Under the pieces are notes generated by a model. It had not been told where the DNA came from. It made no database searches and saw only the letters and a program-made list of their open reading frames with translations. This document shows, piece after piece, positions 11,108-43,312 of a DNA stretch of 54,758 nucleotides (within the stretch, counting starts at the first letter, position 1; every line of letters starts with the position of its first letter). Source of the stretch: a virus (taxonomy: Duplodnaviria > Caudoviricetes); IMG/VR virus record IMGVR_UViG_3300025771_000034, positions 1 through 54,758 of that record. The stretch is one strand, 5' to 3'. Position numbers and translations under genes: made by a program.

Positions 11108-14100
11108 GATATTACTTCCTTCAAAATGGTAGTTCCTTCTTTTGTTTTTGATAGCTCAATCTTAACGACTGTACCTTCTTCACACTTCATATATGCTTGT
11201 GCAAATTGTGATGGGAAAACTGTTACAGCAATCATTTCACGATCAGCGGTTGCTATTGTCATGTTAGCCATTTTCTTACCCGCCTTTGTTATTCTAGGAT
11301 TAAACGATAGCACAAAAACCTCGTCTTGTCCAAAGGGTATTTGCTTATAGTTGAGGAACCTAATCATGGGACTTGTCTTGTAACTATCAAGTTCATCAAT
11401 TGGAATTGCCTCCGCAACCCTATTGGCTGATGCAAGAATTAGGTACGTCTTTCCCGTTTCTATCGTAGTGTCCTCAGGCGCAAATATTCCTACTGATCCC
11501 GTCTTGTCTAGTAGTTCAACACGCGACCAGCCCTTACCACGCTTTATATTTTTGACAACGCCTAGAAGAATGTGTGACCCGTCTTCTTCATAATCTTCAG
11601 AGTTGTCAATATACGCATAATAGTGATTAGGAACATTTATGTTGAATTCTGGCAGGTTAAGATATTCGTAAAGGTTTTCTCTTACCCTCTTTTCATCCCG
11701 TGGATTATCGTCAAAGGTCAATGCACCAACGGCATTCATGGCCTCTATTGCACGACTATTGATCCCGCTACCCTTCTTAAATGCGGCATCACGAACTTCT
11801 TGGTAAGAATTAAATGGCCTAGCAGCAATAATGTTTGACGAAACTTTATCAGATAGCCACTTGATAGAAGATAGTCCAAACCTAATTGCTTTACCCTCAA
11901 TAGAGAAATCAATCTCTGATTCATTGACATGGGGAAGCCTTAGTGGAATTCCCATACGCTTGGCCTCAATAAGATACTCTGTCCTTGAGTCCTTATCCTT
12001 TTCATTGCTAAGGACAGAATACATAAACTCAATAGGGTAGTAGAACTTGAGCCAAGCTGTCCAGTAAGAAAGCATTGAGTATGCAACGGCGTGAGACTTA
12101 TTAAATGAGTACCCTGCATGTGCCTCAAAGTCGTGCCACATATTATCTGCCTGGAATGGACTAATGTATGCCGATGCATTTCTAATAAACTTATCCTTGA
12201 ATACATCAAGCTCTTTAGCGTCTTTCTTCTTACCAATAATCTTGCGAACCTTGTCAGCCTCTGCGAATGTCATGCCTCCGACTGTGGTACACGCCTGCAT
12301 AACCTGCTCCTGATAAAGAATCTGACCATAAGTATCTTCTAGGAATGGCCTCATTACTGAATGGGGATACTCAACAATATTTTTACCACTCTTTCTAGCA
12401 ATGTATTCCTTTCCAATAGTATTCATGGCTCCTGGGCGAACAAGGGCGTTAGAAGCCACTAGTTCATCAAAGTTCTTAACACCCATCTTTATAAGAAGGT
12501 TAGTATATGGAGTTGCTTCACATTGAAACACTCCCTTGGTATTTCCCTCAGAAAGCATTCGATATACTTCTCTATCTTTTAGATCAATAGTATTAAGATC
12601 AATGTCTATACCGTTTCTTTCCTTGATAGTCCTTAGAGTATCTTGAATAACAGTAAGAGTCTTTAGCCCAAGGGCATCAATCTTAATCAGGCCAATGTCT
12701 GCTGCTTCATCCATATCTACAGCAACAACAGGAATACGAGTCTTAGTACCCGTTACAGTTCTAGTTTCCATTGGAGCGTACTTATGAATAGCATCCTTTG
12801 CAGTTACAACTCCTGCAGCATGGACCCCTGTACCACGAATACGACCACGCAATTGCTCTGCGTATATCTGAACATCTGGATACTTTTCTCTAAACCATTC
12901 TGTTGAATTAGAACTAATAAAATCTTCCCATGTGTCAACAAGCTTGAGTGCCTTATTCACATCTGGCAAAGGAACATGAAGTGCCCTAGCAACGTCACGC
13001 ACAACGCCCTTGTCCTTAAACATCAGGAAGGTAGTAATAGAGGCTACATTCTTGTATTCTTTCTCTAGGTATTCCTTAACCTCTTCACGACGGCTATCCT
13101 GGATATCAGTATCAATATCTGGAAAGTCATTTCGCTCAGGATTAATAAATCGGAAGAACAAAAGTCCATACTTAATTGGGTCTACTTCTGTAATACCTAG
13201 TGCATAACAGACGAGAGAGCCTGCAGCAGATCCTCGTCCTGGCCCAACCATAATACCTTGTTCCTTAGACCATGAGATCATATTGCTAACAACAAGGAAG
13301 TAGGGTGCAAACTCTTTGTCATTAATGATAGATAGTTCTTCGTCTACCCTGGCTAGATATTCTTCATCTTTGTCTAGCCCCCTAGACTTAAGGCCATCTA
13401 TGACAAGATTTCTCAACTCATCTTCTGGATTCTTTACCTTGATTGGAAGAAGATTAAGGTTACTCTTTAGCTTATAGTCTTCAACCTTCTCTGCAATCTC
13501 AAGGGTGTTAGAATAAATGCTATCATCAAACTTCTGCTCTTTCTCCATACCCTCTCGCATCTCTTCATATGAAAGGAGATGGATATCAAAACTACGGAAT
13601 GACATAGGACGATCTTCACCATAAAGATAGTCAAGACGCTTCATCAAGTCAGGTATCTTGGCAGACTTCTCATAACTAACGTCTTTTTGTATCTTGGCAT
13701 GTGTGTTGAGTGCAAGCATAATTTCTTGAATTACCTTTTGATCTGTCGTACAATGATGACAGTCAGGGGTAACGATGCACTTAGCACCCATTTCATTAGC
13801 AAGATTATAAAGCTCTGTGTTCATACCAGCAACGTTGTGTGGCATAAGTTCTACATAAAAGTCATCGCCAAAGCGATCCATAAACCACTTGATATGATTC
13901 TTGGCAACAGCATAATCATCTACTTCAATAGCCTTATTGATAAGGCCTGACATGCAGGCAGAGGAAACAATAAGACCGTCACCATACTTATCAAGAACCT
14001 CAAAATCAATTCGTGGCTTCTTGTAAAATCCCTCTGTCCAACCAATCTCATTGAGAGTATTAAGATTCTGTAGTCCCTGTGGATCTTTAGCAAGGATTAC

Positions 14101-34801: not shown

Positions 34802-35198
34802 TCTTTGTCACCTGCCCGTCACCGTCAACTGAAACGGCATCTAGGCCAAGGCCAATTCCAAAACCCTTCATCTTGGCATTTTTACCTTTAAGTGCCATAA
34901 CATCTTTGGGATTACTTGTTTTACCGCCGCTAAATGCTCTAGCCTTTATTTCTTCCCAGGTACTTCCCTTGTTTTTAGCATTAGACTGATCAAGATCAAC
35001 GCCCTGGAGGGCTGCCATAAATTTTTTGTTCTGATAATCGTCTTCTTGTTTTGCTTCAAGAATAGCCACTAGTTCTGGCATTGACAGGTTATCCTCCAGT
35101 TCTTGGTAATCCTTCCAATGCCCCAGAAGAAATACCTTTGATTCTATTGCGGCGAGATCTAGCTCTGACCAGCTAGAGCCGCCGCTAGTGCGTTTGGG
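34794..35198 (-). CDS. Tail assembly chaperone, frameshifted (GT) portion
   Basis: The -1 frame is open from the slippery site (...WSELDLAAIESKVFLLGHWKDYQELEDNLSMPEL...) to the stop at 34794. The ORF track shows only 34794..35081. Confidence 0.8.
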   Translation of the reverse strand, partial: PKRTSGGSSWSELDLAAIESKVFLLGHWKDYQELEDNLSMPELVAILEAKQEDDYQNKKFMAALQGVDLDQSNAKNKGSTWEEIKARAFSGGKTSNPKDVMALKGKNAKMKGFGIGLGLDAVSVDGDGQVTKIG

Positions 35199-35494
35199 TC
35201 ATCAAGTTTGATCCCCGCTGCGACTTCAATAATCTTGTAGATCGTTGGTAGATCTACAACATCTTCTAGCTTTGTTTTGTCTGAATACTCATCGTTGTAC
35301 TGCTTCATCGCAATAGCAGCACAATCAAGAAGTAGATCCATTGACTTAATATTGTCAGAAGCAATATCTTCATCACCAATCTTCTGGAATTCTTTCATGA
35401 ATTCACGCAGAAGAGAGATTTTGAGGGGACGCATAGTAATTGTTGTCCCATCAATTAATTCAACCTCTACCGTTTCGTAGACGCTTGTTGCCAT
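35159..35494 (-). CDS. Tail assembly chaperone (G)
   Basis: 111 aa between tail tube and tape measure; GGAGG SD. Confidence 0.85.
   Translation of the reverse strand: MATSVYETVEVELIDGTTITMRPLKISLLREFMKEFQKIGDEDIASDNIKSMDLLLDCAAIAMKQYNDEYSDKTKLEDVVDLPTIYKIIEVAAGIKLDDPNALAAALAGQS
35192..35198 (-). other. -1 programmed ribosomal frameshift site CCCAAAC
   Basis: C CCA AAC is an XXXYYYZ heptamer in the correct phase; the -1 frame has TGA immediately before it and is open after it. Confidence 0.8.
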
Positions 35495-35551
35495 TTATTC
35501 CTCCTAGAATATAATTAAATTATAGCATAGCAGGGGTATTTTATCATAAAT

Positions 35552-35587
35552 ACACTAAACCCCGCCTTTTTGGGGCGGGGCAAGTGT
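35552..35587 (-). terminator. Intrinsic terminator after major tail gene
   Basis: CCCCGCC/GGCGGGG stem followed by TTTAGTGTATTT on the minus strand. Confidence 0.75.
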
Positions 35588-35605
35588 TATTAAATTTTTA
35601 TTTAA

Positions 35606-36289
35606 TTAGGAACCAACAACGCGGTCTACGATCTTACCGTAGGAACCGTTGTCTGCTGGTAGCAAACGGAATGAAACCTCAAACATTGTAGGCTCATCAC
35701 GCTTTGCGGAAGCAGTTACACTCTCAATTGAAAGTGCACGGTGAGCGACGTAAACACGCTCTACCTTGTTAGCACCAATTGCGGCTGGATCACCTGAGCC
35801 TGGGCCTACAGCGATCATAGCACGCTCTAGTGGTACTTCACCAAGGTCGCCAGACTGAAGAACTAGTGTCTCTTCATTTGAGCCAGAGCCTGTTAGGTCT
35901 GCGTCTTGTGCTGCTGTTGCAACAAGAAGGTTCTCAAGAGTACCTTCAGCAAAAGCTGTGACCATGTTAACCTGCATACCCTGCTTGTAAAGGCGAGCAA
36001 CGTCAAGTAGCTGATCTACCTGAACCTCACCAAAGTCTGGCTGGAACTGAACCTCTAGACCATTCATTGTGTAACCAACGTTGCGCCAGTTAGCGGAAGC
36101 GGAAGCTCCTGCTAGTGTGTCAGCAAACTCTGTTCCAGAAACAAAATCTGGAATATCGTCGCCTGCGGCACCGTCGAATGAATACTCTGCTGGATCTGTA
36201 CCATCAATAAACTTTAGTGAACCACTTCTTGAAACAAAAAGCTGTGCTGCACCTACAATGATCTGTGTTGAATCACCAAGAGTTGCCAT
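35606..36289 (-). CDS. Major tail (tube) protein
   Basis: IIVGAA.LF...VGYT..GL...EVQVDQLLD...F.LLP; position before the chaperones; own promoter and terminator. Start ATG 36289. Confidence 0.85.
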   Translation of the reverse strand: MATLGDSTQIIVGAAQLFVSRSGSLKFIDGTDPAEYSFDGAAGDDIPDFVSGTEFADTLAGASASANWRNVGYTMNGLEVQFQPDFGEVQVDQLLDVARLYKQGMQVNMVTAFAEGTLENLLVATAAQDADLTGSGSNEETLVLQSGDLGEVPLERAMIAVGPGSGDPAAIGANKVERVYVAHRALSIESVTASAKRDEPTMFEVSFRLLPADNGSYGKIVDRVVGS

Positions 36290-36358
36290 ATATTTTTTCA
36301 CCCCTTATTAGTTAAATTTGGCGTGGGGCGTTTCCTCAATTACATTATAGCCTATGTT

Positions 36359-36859
36359 TTAAGCATTGTAAATATCTGAGATATGATAGTCATATTTGAT
36401 TATGAGGTTGGCAGAATACTGTTTATTTTTACCCTGCTGTTCTGTGGTGTTTCCAACGTAATTAACCTGGCTAGTATTTACACAATGAAAATATATTCTA
36501 GTATTTGATAGGGTTTCACCAGCATACTCATTTATATCCCGTGCCCCATCATCTTCTCTATCAAGGACATTGGAAATAAAGTCTCTCCATTCAAATATAT
36601 CTCCTACCCCACCCTTTATGGAATACATCATTTGACCAGCTTTTACTGGATAGAAATATTTTCTTGTTGTTCTTGCTCTCATAAAGGAATCATAAACTAT
36701 ATAAGGCTTTGTTCCCCATGCCGTGTCTCCAGCTTTTATATCGCTAATTGGAAAAAATGGTATAAGGCCAGAGGTGTAATTAGAATATATAGCAGGCTTT
36801 GCCAATTCAAATTGCTTCCATACATATTTATTGATTATAAGTTCTGGATAATTACTCAT
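36359..36859 (-). CDS. Tail terminator-like protein
   Basis: Directly upstream of the tail tube; PYIVYD motif. Start ATG 36859. Confidence 0.55.
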   Translation of the reverse strand: MSNYPELIINKYVWKQFELAKPAIYSNYTSGLIPFFPISDIKAGDTAWGTKPYIVYDSFMRARTTRKYFYPVKAGQMMYSIKGGVGDIFEWRDFISNVLDREDDGARDINEYAGETLSNTRIYFHCVNTSQVNYVGNTTEQQGKNKQYSANLIIKYDYHISDIYNA

Positions 36860-37541
36860 TTTCACCACCTGGCATATTCATAACCCATTTTAGCGCAGTT
36901 GTTCTACCTATGCCAGCGGCATTGCCAGATTTTACTGCACTACCAAAATTCGACTCAAACCCTTTTGGATTCTCAAAATGTTGATAAAATCTAATTGCTC
37001 TTAAATATACTTGTTCAAAATAAGTATTATAAAATTCTTCAAACGCTGCAACAAATGATCCCCGTACACCCTCGCCACCTGGATTTTCTATTACAATTGG
37101 TCCAGCAGTAAAAAACTCATCTCCATTGTATTGAATAAACATAGCCTTTGCCTGAACAGCCTGAACTGTAATTGGAATACCTTCCTCCATAATCTCAGCC
37201 TTTTCATAAAATGGCTCTGACCCACCTTCTGGGATACTAGAAGATGTTACAAATTCGGAATCTATTTGTGCAGATTTTCCACTAAGTCTTTTCTTTAATT
37301 CCACAAGTCTTGAGTCTGGATCTCCTACTGCGCCCCACTCATAAACATGATGAAGCATTCCTGGATTTGTTCTTGCTAGTGTATCAAGGTAATCATAAAA
37401 TGCATCAATGCTTGTATCTGCTAATCTACTTGCTACCGTTTTTTCTTGTGCTTTTGTTTCTTTAATAAATCCATTAGAATATGAAACAACATTATTTAAC
37501 ATTTTCATTGCTTCTTTTCCATCAAACTTAATTGTATACAT
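36852..37541 (-). CDS. Neck / tail completion protein (putative)
   Basis: 229 aa; assigned by synteny in the head-tail block. Confidence 0.5.
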   Translation of the reverse strand: MYTIKFDGKEAMKMLNNVVSYSNGFIKETKAQEKTVASRLADTSIDAFYDYLDTLARTNPGMLHHVYEWGAVGDPDSRLVELKKRLSGKSAQIDSEFVTSSSIPEGGSEPFYEKAEIMEEGIPITVQAVQAKAMFIQYNGDEFFTAGPIVIENPGGEGVRGSFVAAFEEFYNTYFEQVYLRAIRFYQHFENPKGFESNFGSAVKSGNAAGIGRTTALKWVMNMPGGENE

Positions 37542-37984
37542 TATAGAGCCACCTGCAAATCTGATCTGCGTAGCAATATTCTATATCCCATAATATTATG
37601 AACTGCATCAAACATTGGCTCAATTGTATCTATTTCAAAATTTGTTGGCTCTGTGTCAGTTTCTGTCCAGGCAATTGATCCGAAAGGATCTTTGATATTA
37701 CGAACCAAGATATCTGTTGGCCTATAATGTGTACCATCTAAAGACTTATAAATATTTTCATTGGTACGCATATTTATTTTTACATCATACTCAAGAAACT
37801 TTTCTGATGTTAATTGAGTTCTCATTTGAGATTGTGGGTTTTCTTTAATTGCTGAACAATTAATGCTTCTATCCATTGTCCATGATCTTTGAAGTTCTCC
37901 AAAATCGTTCTGGCTTTTTGTAGCATAATAAATATCTGCAGTCATGGGGTAGAAAAGACCATTAAGATTGCCTTGGGGTAGCAT
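37541..37984 (-). CDS. Head-to-tail stopper (putative)
   Basis: 147 aa beta-rich protein after the adaptor; Q..FGE...W pattern. Confidence 0.6.
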   Translation of the reverse strand: MLPQGNLNGLFYPMTADIYYATKSQNDFGELQRSWTMDRSINCSAIKENPQSQMRTQLTSEKFLEYDVKINMRTNENIYKSLDGTHYRPTDILVRNIKDPFGSIAWTETDTEPTNFEIDTIEPMFDAVHNIMGYRILLRRSDLQVAL

Positions 37985-38853
37985 TAAATCACCCCAGGAA
38001 TTATTCTATTCTTATATCCCGATAGAATTTTGTCTGCAATAAGATTTCCTGTACCCGTGGTTATTCCCTTGCCAAACTTAACCTTAAACTCATTGTTGTC
38101 AAACTCTTCGATATATCTGTTGATATATCTCATGTTGTCATTTGTAATATCTTGCATAATAAGCTCACAAGCTTCTTGAATGTCTTCTGGTACAACAATG
38201 TATCCAAAATCTCCATCTACAAGATAATCGTATCCACTAAAAAAGTCTGTGTCAAGATATCTATCTCGCCAAACATATTTATACTCCATCTTATTTACTT
38301 GTGTTACGGAAGTAACAATAGATGTTCCATCTACACTTATCTTATATTCTTGAAGATCTTCATCTTCATAGTCATAAATTTTTACACCATTTTCATATAG
38401 ATAATATAGTTTTTGAATTTTTTCATCTAATGGTAGGTAATCAAGTCCCATTCCATATATTTCTTTTTGTTTTCTTTGAAAATCAAACTTTCCTGCTTCA
38501 GACTCAATAATTTTTCTGGCTACCTTCTCAACTTGAATTGCCTGTGCTGTTGTAATTCCTAATTTATTTTTTACGCTTGTAATATCGCAATATGGTTTAA
38601 CAACATCAATTCCATCGGTTATTACTAATGCACTAGCAGCAGTATAAACTGTTGCTTTAAGACTTCCAGTATAGGTAAGGTAACGATCATCAAGTCCAAA
38701 GGTTACAATTTTAGAAGAATTAGATGTGGCACTAGTTGAATAGGTGCTTCCAGTTGTCAAATCATCATATGACAAAATATAGAGTGTTGATGCGTCTGGT
38801 ACGCTAAATGAAACCTCTACGGTTGTTGTTTCTGGAAGTCTAAGAGTTTCCAT
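37984..38853 (-). CDS. Head-to-tail adaptor
   Basis: PYC...ARKIIE...G.FGY..VPEDIQEAC..I motif; N-terminal beta-rich extension. Confidence 0.7.
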   Translation of the reverse strand: METLRLPETTTVEVSFSVPDASTLYILSYDDLTTGSTYSTSATSNSSKIVTFGLDDRYLTYTGSLKATVYTAASALVITDGIDVVKPYCDITSVKNKLGITTAQAIQVEKVARKIIESEAGKFDFQRKQKEIYGMGLDYLPLDEKIQKLYYLYENGVKIYDYEDEDLQEYKISVDGTSIVTSVTQVNKMEYKYVWRDRYLDTDFFSGYDYLVDGDFGYIVVPEDIQEACELIMQDITNDNMRYINRYIEEFDNNEFKVKFGKGITTGTGNLIADKILSGYKNRIIPGVI

Positions 38854-38856
38854 TCA

Positions 38857-39189
38857 CTATACCCCGTAGGCAATTGCCACTTCTTCTGGTGTAGCCATTC
38901 TTACCTTTGTAGAAATTTTCATCCATTCATCGGCCTGATCTGGCGTAACAATGTTATATCCCTTGTCTAGCCTTCCTAGAGCTGGGTGAACTAGTTTGCC
39001 CTCTGAATAAACAGCGGTTGGTTGTGGCTTAGGATCTTCCTTTTTTGGAGCAGTCTTAGAAGTGATTGTTTTAGAAGTTGTCTTCTTTGTTGACTTTGGC
39101 TTATCTTCTACCTCTACTTCTTTTTTATCTTGAAGTGATTTAGAAACATATGCTTTGTCATAAGAACTTCTAATAATATTATCGCTCAT
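38857..39189 (-). CDS. Hypothetical protein downstream of capsid
   Basis: 110 aa, AAGGAGG SD, K/T-rich linker, ATPEEVA..YG end. Confidence 0.7.
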   Translation of the reverse strand: MSDNIIRSSYDKAYVSKSLQDKKEVEVEDKPKSTKKTTSKTITSKTAPKKEDPKPQPTAVYSEGKLVHPALGRLDKGYNIVTPDQADEWMKISTKVRMATPEEVAIAYGV

Positions 39190-39227
39190 TATAATCCTCC
39201 TTTGTTATTATATCATCTATAAAAGTG

Positions 39228-39261
39228 TTGAAGGGGAGCCATATTTCAGACTCCCCTCCAA
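39228..39261 (-). terminator. Intrinsic terminator after major capsid gene
   Basis: GGGGAG...CTCCCC stem followed by TTCAACACTTTT on the minus strand. Confidence 0.75.
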
Positions 39262-39278
39262 ACTACTTGACAAAGAGA

Positions 39279-40280
39279 TTACTTGCTGCCGTAGGCAACT
39301 GCGTCTGTCTCTTCGATCTGAACACCAAAGCGAACGAATACTGTGTACTCTACTGTGTCCTTCTTTGGCTTGAACTCGCGGTGGACTGTAACATCTCTCT
39401 GGAATCCCCAGATACGATTCTCTGGGAATGTGAGTGAGACATAATCATCGGGGAGGTATGGAACCTCAACGATTGGAAGCCCGAGAACGCGGTACTGTAG
39501 TGGAGCACCAACAATCTGTGGAACACTACCATCAACAATGCGCTCAACAATTCTCTCTGAAGAGAAGTTGCCTGTCTGAGCGAGCTGATTGAGTAGGCTG
39601 GAAAGTGTTGGTGAACCAGCATAGAACTTCATGGCTGAACGTGAACCACGGTACTTTCTTGGCATTGCAAGAATAATATCCTGTAGATCCTGTACTGTCC
39701 ATGTGCTACCACTTGAGGTTACAGCAGCGGCCTGATTGCCACCAGCTGTCTCCTTTGCGTGGAAGCCCTCCATGATGCTAAGGAACGCATTTGTTCCAGA
39801 GCCTGTTCCGTTGATAGCTAGATCCTCTAGATCGTTAGCGAATGCACGGGTCATTGTGCGAACCAAGTGGTCCTCTAGACCTGCACCTTCGATGTTATCC
39901 TCTAGAGCTTCAGTTGAAACCTCCCAATCCAAACGGATCTTCTTGGTGGTAACCTCAACCTTAGTGAAAGCAACATCAGCGTTTGTGTAAGTTGCATCAG
40001 CCTGTGCTGCTGCACGGATTACACGCTCGCCAACGTTTAGCTTCTCTAGCTCTGCGGTGTTGGAACGCATTGTTACTCTGCGACCATCTTGTGCTAGTAC
40101 CTGCTGCTCCCAAATGTATTCGATGAACTGGCGAGACTGCTCAGGATTGAGAATACCGCCATCATCGGTTGTGCTGCCAACAACACCGAGGTCACCAGCG
40201 GCTGGGTTTGTTACACCCCCAATACCACCAGAAACTACTGCGCCTGTTGCAGCTGCCTTCTCTAGGATTTCGTCTGACAT
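39279..40280 (-). CDS. Major capsid protein (HK97 fold)
   Basis: 333 aa after the protease; GGILNPEQS..F, EALEDNIEG, DLEDLAING; AGGAGGT SD; strongly biased codons. Confidence 0.92.
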   Translation of the reverse strand: MSDEILEKAAATGAVVSGGIGGVTNPAAGDLGVVGSTTDDGGILNPEQSRQFIEYIWEQQVLAQDGRRVTMRSNTAELEKLNVGERVIRAAAQADATYTNADVAFTKVEVTTKKIRLDWEVSTEALEDNIEGAGLEDHLVRTMTRAFANDLEDLAINGTGSGTNAFLSIMEGFHAKETAGGNQAAAVTSSGSTWTVQDLQDIILAMPRKYRGSRSAMKFYAGSPTLSSLLNQLAQTGNFSSERIVERIVDGSVPQIVGAPLQYRVLGLPIVEVPYLPDDYVSLTFPENRIWGFQRDVTVHREFKPKKDTVEYTVFVRFGVQIEETDAVAYGSK

Positions 40281-40302
40281 TTTTATTTCACCTCCTATTT
40301 AT

Positions 40303-40893
40303 TTACCGATATAAGTCAGCGGCTTTGAGGAAACGACCGCCCCACATCGACTTTTCAGTTGTATTTTCTTCCTGCACGATCCCGCCAAGATCGCCAGACT
40401 TGCGAACGGCTGTGTCAGCTTCTACAGCATCAACACGCCCTTCAAACTCTGCTACATTGCCTTTTACAGTTGTTACTTCCTCTTGTACGCCGTCTAGAGA
40501 CTTCTTCATCTCTGCGACCTGCTCTGCAATGCCCTTAACTACTGCAGCTAGATCTCCTAGTGAATCTGCAACAGAATCCTTGATCTCGCTAACAGCCTTT
40601 GCCAAGTCATCTGTGCTGCCTTCTTCATTAGGAGTTGTGGACTTTTCGACTACCTCTTCAGTTGTGGCTTCCTCTGTCTCTTCTGCCTTTTCTACTGTTT
40701 CTTCGGCAGAGTCCTCAACAGCGTCCTCTGACTTCTCTACAGTCTCAGCATCTTCTGCAGCGTCATCTGCCTTTGCAACTTCTTCTGTTGTCTCTTCAGC
40801 AGGTTCTTCAACAGTCTCTGCTTCTACTGCAGCGTCCTCTGACTTCTCAATTGGAGCAGCCTCTTCTGAAGACTTTCTATTTAGAATTCCCAC
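40303..40893 (-). CDS. Nested in-frame scaffold protein (internal GTG start)
   Basis: AAGGAGG 8 nt upstream of an in-frame GTG at 40893; predicted 196-aa acidic product. Confidence 0.6.
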   Translation of the reverse strand: MGILNRKSSEEAAPIEKSEDAAVEAETVEEPAEETTEEVAKADDAAEDAETVEKSEDAVEDSAEETVEKAEETEEATTEEVVEKSTTPNEEGSTDDLAKAVSEIKDSVADSLGDLAAVVKGIAEQVAEMKKSLDGVQEEVTTVKGNVAEFEGRVDAVEADTAVRKSGDLGGIVQEENTTEKSMWGGRFLKAADLYR

Positions 40894-41703
40894 GTTATTT
40901 CCCTCCTTTTCAATATTTTCGTCAGCAATTGACTTGGCTATGTCTTCGTCAATCGCCTCATTTTTATCAGATTGTGAATCTGAAACCTTTTCAAATGATG
41001 TAATCAAAGATTTTACAACTTCGGATTTATTTACATCGTTACTCTCTACAAAACCAATATTAGTCATGTGCTTGCTGCACTCTGGGCAACTGTAATCTGA
41101 CTTATCACTTAAGATAACATTGTCACTAGTTGGACACCAGTATACGTTTTCAAGGTAGTTCTTTTCTACCTTTTCTTCTGTAGCATTAAACTTTTGTACA
41201 GAAATAATATTAGAGTCTGGATTTGCTGGATTATCAACAAGGGAAAGCTCATAAAGATCATAATCTTTAATTACCCGAACGGGCTTATCAATTTGCTTGT
41301 TGTACATTTCTTCTGAGTCATTGATGCTTCCACCAATTGAGAATCCAGTAAGAATGCCTTCATTAATTTTATGCCAGGTATCTTCTGCGCCTTTTGAAAC
41401 ATAAACATCTACATAAATACCGTTGTAAAACTGATCAGTATTTTTGTCAAAATATTTATCCTGCTTAAATGAAACGACCTTGCCTACGGCAAGTGGGGTA
41501 TGCTGCTCACGAACGTTTCCACGGAATGCATCAAAAGCTTTTGCTGATGCGTCAGCATTTACAATGTCGCCCTGCTTATCAATGCTATCTGTTGTAGCCC
41601 AGCCTGAAACAATTCTTCTTTCTTTGTCTACTTTTTGAATGGGCATTCTAACGGAAATGTTATTCCCGTCTGTGCTCCAATAAGCTTTTTCAAAAATAGT
41701 CAT
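40303..41703 (-). CDS. Prohead protease fused to acidic scaffold domain
   Basis: RIVSGWAT...DKQGD...REQH...GFSIGG...ELSLVDNPANP (HK97/XkdF-type protease), then Glu-rich repeats and coiled coil. Confidence 0.9.
   Translation of the reverse strand: MTIFEKAYWSTDGNNISVRMPIQKVDKERRIVSGWATTDSIDKQGDIVNADASAKAFDAFRGNVREQHTPLAVGKVVSFKQDKYFDKNTDQFYNGIYVDVYVSKGAEDTWHKINEGILTGFSIGGSINDSEEMYNKQIDKPVRVIKDYDLYELSLVDNPANPDSNIISVQKFNATEEKVEKNYLENVYWCPTSDNVILSDKSDYSCPECSKHMTNIGFVESNDVNKSEVVKSLITSFEKVSDSQSDKNEAIDEDIAKSIADENIEKEGNNVGILNRKSSEEAAPIEKSEDAAVEAETVEEPAEETTEEVAKADDAAEDAETVEKSEDAVEDSAEETVEKAEETEEATTEEVVEKSTTPNEEGSTDDLAKAVSEIKDSVADSLGDLAAVVKGIAEQVAEMKKSLDGVQEEVTTVKGNVAEFEGRVDAVEADTAVRKSGDLGGIVQEENTTEKSMWGGRFLKAADLYR
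40719..40848. repeat. 19-bp direct repeat within scaffold (EKSEDA units)
   Basis: cagcgtcctctgacttctc at 40719-40737 and 40830-40848. Confidence 0.8.
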
Positions 41704-41755
41704 TTCAAACCCATTATATACTATATTTATAGTATTTTATCACAATTTTATAAAT

Positions 41756-43312
41756 TTATGCAGTTGTTCTGCCTTCTCCTCCTGGATTTCTTCCAGTTTC
41801 TGTTGCGGAGGAGTCAGTAGCGTTATTTTGTCGTTCTGTATCTCTTTGTCTGTTACCTGTAATTTGTGCCCTTGATTCCGCTCTTTGTTGTGCTGTTAGT
41901 TCAACTGGTGATTGACCGCCATCTCGTACAGGCATTCCCATTCTTTGTCTTACTTCATTTGGAACAATAACCTGAGTCTTGAGATATCTTTCATCAATCT
42001 GACTTTGTGTATTTTCATCTGTTAATGTAAATTCATTTAGTCTAAAGTTAAACATATCTGTTTTTTCTTTTACTATTTTATTTATTACCTTTTCTAAAGT
42101 TCTTTGTGCTGGTCGTGCAACCTGTTCCTTAAATGTACGATCCGATGCTAGTGCAGCGGCAATAGACATGCCCTGACCGCCACCAACCTTTGATATTGGT
42201 GTTTGATGAGCCATAAGAATATCTTCACGATTAGACTTGCGGTACTTTTCAAAAGAGCCTTCTTGTACGCCATTTTCAATTGGCTCCATATTAAACTCTA
42301 CCTTGTTATCTCCTGTATCTCCAGGAAGAGGGATGTAGAGTGTTCTGTGGCTTTGTCCTTTGAGTCCAGACTGCAAAAATCTAAACAGCTTATCTTCTGC
42401 ATCTGTACTTAGCTTTGCACCCTTAAGAGTAACGATGTATCGTGGCACTGCCTTATTCTCAAAATAGTCAATGTTGTAGCGACCAGCAAGTGTGTCACCA
42501 ACTAGTGATGTAGAAGCAGCCAAGATATCTGGAACACCATAATAGCTATTACGAGGGGTATATTTCTTAATATGAATTAGCTCGTTTGGTCGCGGATCTG
42601 TTGTTACATTGTTGGGTGTTTTTACATCTTGGAAATTTCTGAAGAATACTGTTCTTTGATTAACTACCTGAATGTATCCATCGCGTTCTCTTCTAACGCG
42701 AATAGTTGTTGCAGGAATATGACCGATATATCCAATTTCTCCAGAAGTTGTTCTACCTACCTCAATATATCCATTTCCAGTTGCCTCATAATCAGTAAAG
42801 GCTTTTTCAAGAACGTGAGTCAGAGTATCTTCATCATTAAGATCTTCAAGCCATTCCATAACCATAGCCTTTGCTCTGTCAGCTTTTCTTTGTGCACGCA
42901 TTCTCTGATCATCATTGCCAGCATCTTCAATCCTGTCCATAAGATTGGGAGTTGGTTCTAGATGATATCCAAGGCCAACAATGTTTGATACCTTGGCATT
43001 TACCGCTGCATGGTTAGCAAAATTTGTTTCATAAAAATTAGCAAGCTCGTCAAGGTTGTATGGTGGAACAATAACATCAAAAAGTCCATAGGCAGTTGTA
43101 ATATCCATATCTGGAATTAGCTGCTTTGACTTTGCCCCGTCTTGTCCTGTCCAAACCTTATTTAGTCTAGAAATACGACGCTTAAAATTAGGATTAAGTC
43201 CAGTATATGATTTTACTGTTTCTACACCAGCATTGAATGGATCAAATTTTGATATCTTGTTTGATTGAGGATTATCAATTCTTGCTCTACCCTCGTAGTC
43301 GTCATTCTCCAT
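41756..43312 (-). CDS. Portal protein
   Basis: 518 aa upstream of the protease; PPYN, TGNGYIEV.R...HIPA, YYGVPD, YF.N.A.P, NEVR..MG.P motifs. Confidence 0.92.
   Translation of the reverse strand: MENDDYEGRARIDNPQSNKISKFDPFNAGVETVKSYTGLNPNFKRRISRLNKVWTGQDGAKSKQLIPDMDITTAYGLFDVIVPPYNLDELANFYETNFANHAAVNAKVSNIVGLGYHLEPTPNLMDRIEDAGNDDQRMRAQRKADRAKAMVMEWLEDLNDEDTLTHVLEKAFTDYEATGNGYIEVGRTTSGEIGYIGHIPATTIRVRRERDGYIQVVNQRTVFFRNFQDVKTPNNVTTDPRPNELIHIKKYTPRNSYYGVPDILAASTSLVGDTLAGRYNIDYFENKAVPRYIVTLKGAKLSTDAEDKLFRFLQSGLKGQSHRTLYIPLPGDTGDNKVEFNMEPIENGVQEGSFEKYRKSNREDILMAHQTPISKVGGGQGMSIAAALASDRTFKEQVARPAQRTLEKVINKIVKEKTDMFNFRLNEFTLTDENTQSQIDERYLKTQVIVPNEVRQRMGMPVRDGGQSPVELTAQQRAESRAQITGNRQRDTERQNNATDSSATETGRNPGGEGRTTA

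What the first reader, a model, noticed from the sequence alone, without database searches (positions are those of the whole stretch)
36321..40346. Tail-tube mRNA leader is complementary to a hairpin loop upstream of the capsid RBS: possible RNA-RNA switch coupling head and tail synthesis
Seen: plus 36323-36339 is GTGGGGCGTTTCCTCAA and minus 40345-40325 is GTGGGGCGgtcgTTTCCTCAA, a 17-bp inverted repeat with one 4-nt insertion, 4 kb apart. Both genes are read on the minus strand, so the two RNAs are complementary. One copy starts just after the TATAAT (36349-36344) preceding the major tail gene, so it is the predicted 5' end of that mRNA (GAGGAAACGCCCCAC). The other lies about 45-65 nt upstream of the capsid AUG, where GGCGGU/GCCGCU can form a 6-bp stem whose loop is exactly CGUUUCCUCAAA. 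That loop is also partly complementary to the capsid SD (AGGAGGUGAAA). Inference: the loop may act as a cis anti-SD, and the tail leader may bind it in trans and open the stem, tying together the two most abundant virion proteins. I know of no described mechanism like this. Caveats: 11-bp matches alone occur by chance in 55 kb, and the capsid-side copy is also coding (WGGRFL).
Basis: partly seen in the sequence, partly recalled or inferred. Interest (0 to 1): 0.8.

Follow-up and report, generated by a model that had tools for sequence, protein, structure and literature searches.

The report
Conserved head–tail mRNA complementarity in phages
The first bases of this phage's tail-tube messenger RNA can base-pair with a short stretch just upstream of the capsid gene, and related phages keep this match through compensating mutations, which points to an undescribed direct RNA link between head and tail production.

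Summary
Within this window alone it is only mildly unusual, but it is conserved. In 121 related viral contigs holding both genes, 82 of 83 distinct pairs keep a two-part duplex. Site A is a conserved -10 box, 5-8 nt, GAGGAAAC, a variable linker and a C-rich block. Site B is GGNGGN-CGU-UUC-CUC in the last codons of the prohead protease/scaffold ORF. B's Arg-Phe-Leu codons are rare ones and almost never change synonymously. Three of the eight core pairs show compensatory double changes. Cultured Streptomyces phages (about 40% capsid identity) and a Rhodococcus phage Trina group carry other sequences at the same two places that still match. The motif is not multi-copy. Freshwater metatranscriptome contigs cross B; the tail contig ends 9 nt inside A, so A's presence in RNA is unproven. 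Most likely the head and tail mRNAs pair; the direction of the effect is unresolved. No matching paper was found.

The parts
36323..36339 (-). Site A: UUGAGGAAAC-GCCCCAC at the predicted 5' end of the tail-tube mRNA. The core GAGGAAAC is 36337..36330.
   Evidence: Conserved in 134 of 135 relatives with the upstream region. The AGGA positions are invariant in 98 distinct windows.
36344..36372 (-). Sigma-70-type promoter TTTACA-17-TATAAT (-35 at 36372..36367, -10 at 36349..36344).
   Evidence: 11 of 12 consensus matches, tied with one plus-strand site for the best match in 34.5-44.5 kb. A -10 hexamer is present in 98 of 98 distinct relatives, 5-8 nt before the G of GAGG.
36325..36330 (-). C-rich block CGCCCC of the leader. 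It is complementary both to the tail-tube SD (in cis) and to GGGGCG of site B.
   Evidence: MFE fold of the leader pairs it with GGGGUG, P(SD paired) 0.90. Duplex with B.
36299..36304 (-). Shine-Dalgarno GGGGTG of the tail-tube gene.
36328..36328 (-). 5' end of the RNA contig over the tail-tube gene in metatranscriptomes, +10 relative to the G of GAGG.
   Evidence: Contigs end at 36328 (X1, X2), 36327 (X4) and 36322 (X3). The first three are followed by adapter-like loose letters (tables 7 and 8).
35606..36289 (-). Major tail (tube) protein gene, 227 aa.
   Evidence: phrog_2175, E 1.4e-29. The syntenic genes in the Tomas, Annadreamy and BillNye records are annotated as major tail protein; Paradiddles gp52 was used as a homology query.
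35560..35580 (-). Hairpin CCCCGCC / GGCGGGG followed by a U-rich tail, read by eye as an intrinsic terminator after the tail-tube gene. The scan did not list it on the minus strand.
40325..40345 (-). Site B: GUGGGGCG-gucg-UUUCCUCAA in the codons M-W-G-G-R-F-L-K. The core GUUUCCUC is 40334..40327.
   Evidence: Present in 198 of 198 relatives with enough upstream DNA. Synonymous change is suppressed.
40318..40341 (-). Weak local hairpin: stem GGCGG (40341..40337) with CCGCU (40322..40318), and the B core in the loop.
40303..41703 (-). Prohead protease fused to an acidic scaffold-like tail, 466 aa.
   Evidence: phrog_9427, E 3.1e-109; Peptidase_S78.
40288..40296 (-). Capsid Shine-Dalgarno AGGAGGTGA.
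   Evidence: Not predicted to pair with B.
39279..40280 (-). Major capsid protein gene, 333 aa.
   Evidence: PF05065, E 3.7e-17; phrog_1623, E 6.3e-74.
39228..39261 (-). 13-bp terminator-like hairpin after the capsid gene.
   Evidence: RNA contigs end at 39228 (X2) and 39251 (X3).

Best explanation
Sites A and B are the two halves of a selected RNA-RNA pairing between two separate late transcripts. The tail-tube gene is its own transcription unit, with a conserved -10 promoter, a leader of about 50 nt, the ORF and a terminator. Its predicted first base is the G of GAGGAAAC. Site B lies about 45-70 nt upstream of the capsid start codon on the head mRNA. In this phage it is inside the last 13 codons of the protease/scaffold ORF, and its core is exposed at the top of a weak hairpin.

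Pairing would begin between the single-stranded 5' AGGA core of the tail leader and the UCCU of the B loop. It would then extend over 8-12 bp and, after an internal loop, into the leader's C-rich block. In this phage that block otherwise pairs with the tail-tube SD. I therefore commit to this reading: head mRNA binds the 5' end of tail-tube mRNA and thereby tunes tail-tube translation and/or 5'-end stability, linking the two most abundant virion proteins.

Shown: the complementarity, its conservation, its covariation, the suppressed synonymous change, the promoter conservation, and RNA contigs across B.
Inferred: that the duplex forms, that it forms in trans, and above all the direction and sign of the effect. 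My split is roughly 0.35 that it acts on the tail-tube mRNA, 0.15 on capsid/scaffold expression, and 0.1 on both.
For: 1. Conservation. 134 of 135 relatives with tail-tube upstream DNA carry a -10 box followed by GAGGAAAC. The exception, L160, has GAGAAAC. All 198 loci with enough DNA upstream of the capsid gene carry B. 82 of 83 distinct A-B pairs from 121 loci fold into a two-part duplex of -18 to -32 kcal/mol. The 83rd was a mis-pick by my regex. With A shuffled the mean is -10.3 kcal/mol.

2. Selection on B at the nucleotide level. CGT, TTC and CTC make up 14%, 22% and 5% of Arg, Phe and Leu codons in 12 structural genes. Over 67 distinct sequences they are nonetheless 64/65, 66/66 and 57/67, with 1, 0 and 1 parsimony steps. 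Other conserved Arg and Leu codons show 6-13 steps. Codon 317 can encode R, S, M, T or H and still keeps the pairing bases.

3. Covariation over 88 distinct pairs.
- Pair 1: G-C to U-A.
- Pair 7: A-U to G-C or C-G.
- Pair 8: C-G to U-G, U-A or G-C.
- 76 of 88 pairs are fully Watson-Crick and 4 more have one G-U.

4. Other sequences at the same two places.
- Streptomyces phages have UGAGGAAGUG / CACUUCCUCA.
- The L288 group has UGAGGAAAUGCC / GGCAUUUCCUCA.
- The Trina group has GGUAGGAUU / AAUCCUACC (Trina), GGUAAGAUAC / GUAUCUUACC (L233) and GGUAGGAA / UUCCUACC (L234). In this group B is overlapping the protease stop codon (Trina) or intergenic (L233).
- In an unbiased longest-exact-complement search, 19 of 30 loci put the top k-mer at A (-51..-60 from the tail ATG) and B (-58..-67 from the capsid ATG). 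Nine of the other 11 were shown to hold the same helix with a G-U. L238 and L239 have the same strings as L237.

5. Cognate pairs beat non-cognate pairs, -24.6 against -23.6 kcal/mol, with 0 of 5000 permutations as good.

6. A starts at the predicted +1. The spacer from the -10 box to the G is 6 nt in 58 and 7 nt in 30 of 98 windows.

7. The linker between the core and the C-rich block of A varies from 0 to 6 nt, while B's spacing is fixed by codons. An RNA internal loop tolerates that easily.

8. The motif is not multi-copy.

9. RNA. In 4 of 4 freshwater metatranscriptome runs a contig crosses B. The tail-tube contig ends at 36328, 36328, 36327 and 36322, three times followed by adapter-like letters. 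That is a weak hint of a discrete RNA 5' end next to the promoter.

10. The B core is mostly unpaired, at the top of a local hairpin, in 8 of 8 representatives from three groups.

11. The leader's C-rich block pairs with the tail-tube SD. Mean P(SD paired) is 0.68 and it is 0.90 in the window.
Against: - No call shows the duplex itself.
- The RNA contigs do not cover the first 9 nt of A. It is therefore not shown that GAGGAAACG is present in stable RNA. The end may be a processing site, or 5' loss during library preparation (the latter is my recollection, not a tool result).
- In this phage and the Streptomyces phages B lies in a translated ORF, so ribosomes would keep unwinding it.
- RNAalifold finds no consensus structure for the leader (0 pairs) and only 4 weak pairs at B. 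The B stem shows no covariation beyond shuffles.
- The predicted effect of B on tail-tube SD accessibility is small: 0.32 rises to 0.43, against 0.27 with shuffled B, and only 23 of 86 pairs rise by more than 0.2. The effect is reversed in 3 of 6 Streptomyces phages.
- 8 of 88 distinct pairs have one or two non-pairs in the core.
- The cognate advantage is only 1 kcal/mol, and the permutation test ignores relatedness.
- A pair of DNA sites that co-evolve with a binding protein predicts the same covariation.
- The single-genome tests for the Trina group are weak: 184/2000 for Trina and 83/2000 for L233.
Confidence: 0.55

Rival explanations
1. DNA-level reading. A and B are two copies, in opposite orientation, of a binding site for a phage or host DNA-binding protein. 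For example, one operator overlaps +1 of the tail-tube promoter, a second lies 4 kb away, and the two might loop. Both copies change together because they follow the protein's specificity.
For: The covariation is predicted equally by an inverted DNA repeat. A overlaps the predicted start site, a typical repressor position. In Trina a third copy of the B-type 9-mer lies upstream of the -10 box, so an inverted repeat brackets the promoter. The RNA contigs do not cover the core of A.
Against: - There are only two copies per genome. Counts at up to 1 mismatch equal those of a reversed-pattern control in three complete 127-133 kb genomes and in the window.
- The site has no dyad symmetry.
- The spacing between the core and the C-rich block varies from 0 to 6 nt in A but is fixed in B.
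- B keeps a constant distance to the capsid start (-58..-67) even where it has left the ORF.
- Persistent U-G and G-U differences between the copies keep RNA pairing.
- At the third position of Gly315, C (44) and U (14) are far commoner than A (4), although GGA makes up 36% of Gly codons. That fits G-C and G-U pairing.
Confidence: 0.13
2. The B loop is a cis anti-SD that holds the capsid RBS closed, and the tail leader binds the loop in trans, opens it and switches capsid translation on.
For: The same complementarity and covariation as above. The loop UUUCCUC could pair with GAGG-U-GAAA of the capsid SD with one bulge (reading). B keeps a fixed distance from the capsid start.
Against: In 133 distinct sequences the predicted probability that the capsid SD pairs with the B core is 0.02. 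In the L014 clade B changes to CCUAA together with A, while the capsid SD stays unchanged. In L233 the B core (UCUU) has lost SD complementarity.
Confidence: 0.1
3. Cis reading. A and B pair within rare read-through polycistronic late transcripts and loop out the 4-kb capsid-to-connector segment. This would serve RNA processing or stability, as the flanks of rRNA do for RNase III.
For: Both sites are on the same strand, in the right order, and no terminator lies directly before the A promoter. Low-depth RNA contigs exist between the two sites.
Against: A terminator-like hairpin follows the capsid gene, and two of four head contigs end there. The tail-tube gene has its own conserved promoter and a hairpin read by eye as a terminator. 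Contigs cross B in 4 of 4 runs, with no adapter-type end listed near B. Helices of 8-12 bp are short for RNase III (my knowledge).
Confidence: 0.07
4. Independent constraints. A is conserved as an SD-like 5' stabiliser, standby site or start-site element. B is conserved for the protease C-terminal peptide and codon choice. The complementarity is a by-product of SD-like versus anti-SD-like sequence.
For: The invariant core is AGGA / UCCU, which is SD-like. The WGGRFL peptide is conserved.
Against: The flanking pairs covary. L233 has lost AGGA (AAGA / UCUU) yet keeps a 10-nt match. The amino acid at codon 317 varies while the pairing bases stay. B can be non-coding. The codons used are rare ones.
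Confidence: 0.05

Closest known systems
IS10/Tn10 RNA-IN / RNA-OUT antisense control (recalled, not from a call)
   Same: The extreme 5' end of an mRNA nucleates pairing with the loop of a hairpin in another RNA.
   Different: There the two RNAs are transcribed from overlapping opposite strands and are fully complementary over about 35 nt. Here the partners are encoded 4 kb apart on the same strand, match over 8-17 nt with an internal loop, and the loop partner is part of an mRNA (in this phage, coding sequence).
Anti-antisense translational activation (DsrA/RprA-rpoS type) and synthetic toehold switches (recalled)
   Same: The leader has a single-stranded 5' segment followed by a block that pairs with its own SD. 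The partner RNA is complementary to both.
   Different: The trigger here is not a small non-coding RNA but a segment of another structural-gene mRNA. No chaperone is known. The predicted opening of the SD is small and inconsistent, so membership is not shown.
Phage P1/P7 c4 antisense RNA acting on the ant operon (recalled)
   Same: A phage-encoded, short, two-part complementarity acts between sites that do not overlap on the DNA.
   Different: c4 is a processed small RNA in an immunity circuit. Here both partners are late structural mRNAs.
Bacterial mRNA-mRNA regulation, for example a regulatory mRNA 3'UTR in Staphylococcus aureus (PMC9217812, seen only in the search listing)
   Same: One mRNA base-pairs with another and regulates it.
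   Different: Those cases use UTRs of cellular genes. None that I found links phage head and tail genes (listings only).
STAB-SD-type 5' mRNA stabilisers of Bacillus (recalled)
   Same: An SD-like AGGA sits at the 5' end of a highly expressed mRNA, far from the start codon.
   Different: Here the element covaries with a second phage site and can lose the SD-like core (L233).

Membership tests
Base-pairing pair of RNAs encoded at separate loci (trans antisense-type control) | Complementary segments on two RNAs read from the same DNA strand | tested here: met
   82 of 83 distinct pairs form the duplex.
Base-pairing pair of RNAs encoded at separate loci (trans antisense-type control) | Pairing kept through compensatory changes | tested here: met
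   Three of 8 core pairs have double-sided changes. Other matching sequences sit at the same places in the Streptomyces and Trina-group phages.
Base-pairing pair of RNAs encoded at separate loci (trans antisense-type control) | Both segments present in RNA in infected cells | tested here: inconclusive
   B is crossed by RNA contigs in 4 of 4 runs. The first 9 nt of A are not covered, because the contig ends at 36328, 36327 or 36322.
Base-pairing pair of RNAs encoded at separate loci (trans antisense-type control) | A physical duplex and an effect on expression | not testable with these tools
   Needs gel shift, probing, reporters and phage mutants.
Anti-antisense / toehold-type translational activation | SD of the regulated mRNA is sequestered by an upstream leader segment | tested here: inconclusive
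   Mean P(SD paired) is 0.68, with 0.57 to the first 25 nt, and 0.90 in the window. Cognate -8.4 against non-cognate -7.4 kcal/mol, though the segments overlap in short leaders. RNAalifold gives 0 pairs.
Anti-antisense / toehold-type translational activation | Binding of the trigger frees the SD | tested here: inconclusive
   P(SD unpaired) rises from 0.32 to 0.43, against 0.27 with shuffled B. It falls in Paradiddles, Tomas and Yaboi.
Anti-antisense / toehold-type translational activation | The trigger is a small non-coding RNA | tested here: not met
   B lies inside ORF 40303-41703, on a contig of 1.9-2.9 kb.
   Mean pairing probability 0.02 over 133 distinct sequences.
Sigma-70-type promoter with transcribed leader | Conserved -10 hexamer at fixed distance, and an RNA end nearby | tested here: met
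   TATAAT in 60, TATACT in 37 and TACAAT in 1 of 98 windows. The spacer is 5-8 nt and an extended TG is present in 57 of 98. The window promoter matches 11 of 12. The RNA contig end lies 16 nt after the -10 box.
Any Rfam 15 family | A match at A or B | tested here: not met
   Three sub-threshold hits elsewhere in 35000-42000 and none at A or B.
Operator sites of a DNA-binding regulator | Dyad symmetry or several copies at promoters | tested here: not met
   Two copies only, and counts equal a reversed-pattern control. Protein binding itself is not testable here.
STAB-SD-type 5' stabiliser | A 5'-proximal SD-like sequence that binds the 16S 3' end | tested here: inconclusive
   AGGA is invariant in 88 of 88 pairs of the first two groups but is AAGA in L233. 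The host 16S is unknown.

The most novel reading that the evidence does not exclude
Across a large clade of siphophages, which includes cultured phages of Actinobacteria, the head mRNA and the tail-tube mRNA recognise each other directly. A loop about 60 nt before the capsid start binds the 5' terminal bases of the tail-tube mRNA and remodels its leader. This would be a natural toehold-like switch with no small RNA and no protein. It would set the head-to-tail protein ratio or timing through stoichiometric mRNA-mRNA pairing.
Probability: 0.3. Interest if true: 0.9.

Novelty: new variant of a known kind. Interest (0 to 1): 0.75.

Why it matters
- How tailed phages balance head and tail production after transcription is mostly unexplained. 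A direct, co-evolving pairing between the two most abundant structural mRNAs would be a new layer of morphogenetic control.
- It would also be an example of coding sequence shaped by an RNA partner: rare codons frozen for at least 40% capsid divergence.
- The same architecture occurs in cultured, non-pathogenic Streptomyces phages (BillNye, Annadreamy, Paradiddles, Tomas, Yaboi, Mandalore), so the idea can be tested directly with standard genetics.
- If it acts like a toehold switch, it is a natural counterpart of a widely used synthetic device.
- It also gives annotators a marker for the tail-tube promoter and leader in this abundant uncultured clade. alone found 598 related stretches.

Tried and rejected
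- **Rfam**: nothing at A or B.
- **RNAalifold on 123 B regions and 94 leaders**: no useful consensus. The leader alignment is gappy, so this is weak negative evidence.
90.7% of cells are paired, against 28-65% in slid controls, but covariation is no better than in shuffles. The stem is possible, not proven.
- **Cis anti-SD at the capsid RBS**: rejected.
- **An antisense promoter at B on the plus strand**: the scan lists no plus-strand promoter-like site near 40300-40360, and the Leu-Tyr/Phe codons that would form its -10 box vary. Rejected.
- **RNase III-type cleavage at B**: contigs cross B in 4 of 4 runs, and the loose ends listed near it (40311, 40369, 40404) are not adapter-like. Not supported; six loose ends were not shown.
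- **Absence of RNA cover between 36329 and about 36677, and depth differences between contigs** (33-46 over the tail-tube gene, 59-85 over protease/capsid, 0-8 between): the tool says contigs cannot rank genes and that holes prove nothing. I do not use these as evidence. X1-X4 are four coded studies, all freshwater from 2017, and may be one campaign.
- **The single adapter-type end at 40951** (X4 only): it gave no way to calibrate how many 5' bases the libraries lose.
- **Host**: eight genome-contig hits sit in MAGs labelled Actinomycetota, Polynucleobacter, Methylococcus, Flavipsychrobacter, Flavobacterium, Aquiluna, Bifidobacterium and Lishizhenia. These are most likely mis-binned phage contigs, so the host is unknown.
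- **Close cultured relatives**: none by DNA. By protein the best is 40%.
- **Rhodococcus phage Grayson and Pseudomonas phage FBPa45**: no complementarity beyond chance, or no intergenic promoter before the tail gene.
- **Direction of regulation from cofolds**: inconsistent, so left open.
- **Literature**: searches returned no paper on such a head-tail pairing. I saw search listings and abstract starts only and read no paper. Supplements are closed.

Full report
**What is there.** The window is a 54,758-base viral metagenome record, estimated 46% complete. The region is a minus-strand morphogenesis module:
- portal, 41756-43312
- prohead protease with an acidic scaffold-like tail, 40303-41703
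- major capsid protein, 39279-40280
- connector genes
- a 227-aa Ig-domain tail-tube protein, 35606-36289
- chaperones and the tape measure

Site A (36339..36323, UUGAGGAAACGCCCCAC as RNA) starts 5 nt after TATAAT, in the gap before the tail-tube gene. Site B (40345..40325, GUGGGGCGgucgUUUCCUCAA) lies in the codons M-W-G-G-R-F-L-K, 13 codons before the protease stop and 45-65 nt before the capsid ATG.

**Is it chance?** Within the window alone it might be.
- There are 1464 inverted pairs of 14 nt or more, and this one is not among the 25 longest.
- The degenerate motif is not enriched: 12 hits against 10.8 expected. Only A and B match with fewer than 2 mismatches.
- Restricted to the two upstream regions, the 11-nt exact match is reached by 8 of 2000 shuffles.

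**Relatives.** No close cultured phage exists. The capsid protein, however, finds hundreds of viral contigs: 598 related stretches, of which the best 80 are kept per scan. Two further scans used divergent members as queries.

I analysed 214 sequences, the window included.
- All 198 loci with enough DNA upstream of the capsid gene carry B, in 18 distinct 18-mers.
- 134 of 135 with DNA upstream of the tail-tube gene carry a -10 box followed by GAGGAAAC. L160 has GAGAAAC. In two loci my regex picked an upstream AAGGAC, but the listing shows the motif in L068.
- Anchored on the motif, 98 distinct windows have AGGA invariant and the 8-mer at 1.6-2.0 bits per position.
- Every window has TATAAT, TATACT or TACAAT 5-8 nt upstream (6 nt in 58 windows, 7 nt in 30). 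This makes the G of GAGG the predicted +1.
- After the 8-mer comes a linker of 0-6 nt that differs between clades, then a C-rich block such as CGCC, CCCC or GCCC.

**B is constrained as nucleic acid.** CGT, TTC and CTC are minor codons here, at 14%, 22% and 5%. In 67 distinct protease 3' ends they are nonetheless 64/65, 66/66 and 57/67, with 1, 0 and 1 parsimony steps. Other conserved Arg and Leu codons in the same alignment took 6-13 steps, and the two Gly codons before them vary freely at 6 and 12 steps. Where codon 317 changes its amino acid (S, M, T, H), it keeps the bases that pair.

**Pairing and covariation.**
- 82 of 83 distinct A-B pairs from 121 loci give a two-part duplex of -18 to -32 kcal/mol.
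- Shuffling A gives a mean of -10.3 kcal/mol.
- Cognate pairs average -24.6 against -23.6 for non-cognate pairs, and 0 of 5000 permutations are as good. The test ignores relatedness.

Over 88 distinct pairs, six Streptomyces phages included, the 8-bp core breaks down as follows:
- fully Watson-Crick in 76
- one G-U in 4
- one or two non-pairs in 8

Pairs 1, 7 and 8 show double-sided changes: G-C to U-A, A-U to G-C or C-G, and C-G to U-G, U-A or G-C.

**Cultured and more distant phages.** Streptomyces phages of the Stanwilliamsviridae have about 40% capsid identity to the window. They have KWGG(R/H)FL at the protease end, with GCGCUUCCUC or ACACUUCCUC. Their tail-tube leader starts, after a -10-like box, with (U)GAGGAAGUG.

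Rhodococcus phage Trina lacks the peptide motif. It nevertheless has GGUAGGAUU-ua-AUUCGC 7 nt after TATAAT before its tail gene, and GCGAAU-AAUCCUACC across the protease stop codon.

A scan with Trina's capsid gave L233, and a scan with L233's capsid gave L234-L312. I then searched without prior assumptions for the longest exact complement between the two upstream regions.
- L233 gives GGUAAGAUAC / GUAUCUUACC, where B is intergenic.
- L234 gives GGUAGGAA / UUCCUACC.
- The L288 group gives UGAGGAAAUGCC / GGCAUUUCCUCA.
- In 19 of 30 loci the top hit falls at -51..-60 from the tail ATG and -58..-67 from the capsid ATG.
- Nine of the other 11 were shown to carry the same helix interrupted by a G-U. 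L238 and L239 have the same strings as L237.
- Single-genome p-values for the Trina group are weak, 184/2000 and 83/2000. The strength lies in the homologous positions and the mutual compensation.
- Grayson and a Pseudomonas phage show nothing.

**RNA or DNA?** The motif is not a multi-copy site.
- In Paradiddles the exact 10-mer occurs only at A and B.
- In Yaboi it occurs at A, B and one other place.
- At up to 1 mismatch, counts equal a reversed-pattern control.

The variable linker in A against fixed spacing in B, the constant distance of B from the capsid start even when it is non-coding, the persistent G-U positions and the C > U >> A preference at the Gly315 wobble position all fit RNA better. 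None of these excludes a co-evolving protein site.

**Structure.**
- The B core is mostly unpaired at the top of a local hairpin in 8 of 8 representatives (for the window family).
- The capsid SD is not predicted to pair with B (0.02).
- In the tail leader the C-rich block tends to pair with the tail-tube SD. Mean P(SD paired) is 0.68, and 0.90 in the window.
- Adding B raises SD accessibility only from 0.32 to 0.43.
- In three Streptomyces phages the leader holds an internal B-like mimic (CUUUUUCA), and there B is predicted to close the SD. The sign of any effect is therefore open.

**RNA data.** Twenty metatranscriptome runs hold part of the stretch. I laid four freshwater runs from 2017, which are kept as contigs only.
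- A contig of 1.9-2.9 kb crosses B in all four. It ends at the hairpin after the capsid gene in two (39228 and 39251).
- The tail-tube contig runs from about 35589-35609 to 36328, 36328, 36327 and 36322. In three runs adapter-like letters follow.
- That places an RNA fragment end at +10, at the foot of the predicted CCCC:GGGG stem and at the junction of the two helices.
- It fits a promoter at A. It does not show that the first 9 nt are in stable RNA. Candidate causes are 5' loss in library preparation (recalled), exonuclease trimming or cleavage.
- The tail-tube gene is followed by a GC hairpin with a U-rich tail that I read as a terminator, and then by another promoter-like site. It therefore looks like a unit of its own, which favours pairing in trans.

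**Verdict.** The complementarity is ancient, selected and covarying. The most likely meaning is a direct pairing of head and tail-tube mRNAs (0.55). The specific capsid anti-SD switch is not supported. I found no description of such a link (listings only).

Noticed in passing
window 40891-40910 (minus): Inside the protease ORF an in-frame GTG (40893) lies 7 nt after a strong SD (AAGGAGGG). It could start a nested acidic scaffold protein of about 196 aa, ending at the same stop. RNA contigs begin inside the ORF at 40951, 41104 and 41248 in three of four runs.
   Followed up: partly
window about 40380-40400 (minus); alignment columns S294/G295: A second patch with no synonymous change lies about 50 nt upstream of B: AAG-TCT-GGC-GAY-CTN-GGC, with TCT in 67/67 and GGC in 65/65 at 0 steps. 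I found no partner for it.
   Followed up: no
window 39228-39261 and 35560-35580 (minus): Hairpins follow both the capsid gene and the tail-tube gene, and each is followed by a promoter-like -10 box (39188 and 35519). The two most abundant virion genes look like separately bounded units. The scan listed the first hairpin as terminator-like; the second is my reading by eye.
   Followed up: partly
L227 (Rhodococcus phage Trina), about 95-85 nt before the tail gene start at 13178: A third copy of the B-type 9-mer (AATCCTACC) lies upstream of the -10 box. The promoter is thus bracketed by an inverted repeat with A. In read-through RNA this would hide A in a local hairpin; alternatively it is an operator.
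   Followed up: no
L224, L228, L230 (Streptomyces phages Paradiddles, Tomas, Yaboi), tail-tube leaders: These leaders hold three mutually exclusive elements: UGAGGAAG, a B-like CUUUUUCA, and GAAAAGAGGUG (the SD). A small hairpin GUGN-CUAGCCA-NCAC also follows the core and covaries between phages (GUGC/GCAC, GUGU/ACAC).
   Followed up: partly
L215-L222 (genome contigs): Relatives of this phage sit in MAGs assigned to at least six unrelated bacterial groups, which suggests mis-binning. The host of the freshwater clade remains unknown. Distant capsid relatives infect Streptomyces and Rhodococcus.
   Followed up: no
window 35966-36046: In runs X3 and X4 a very high-depth contig (346-380) from another organism or strain matches 81 nt of the tail-tube gene with 8 differences.
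   Followed up: no
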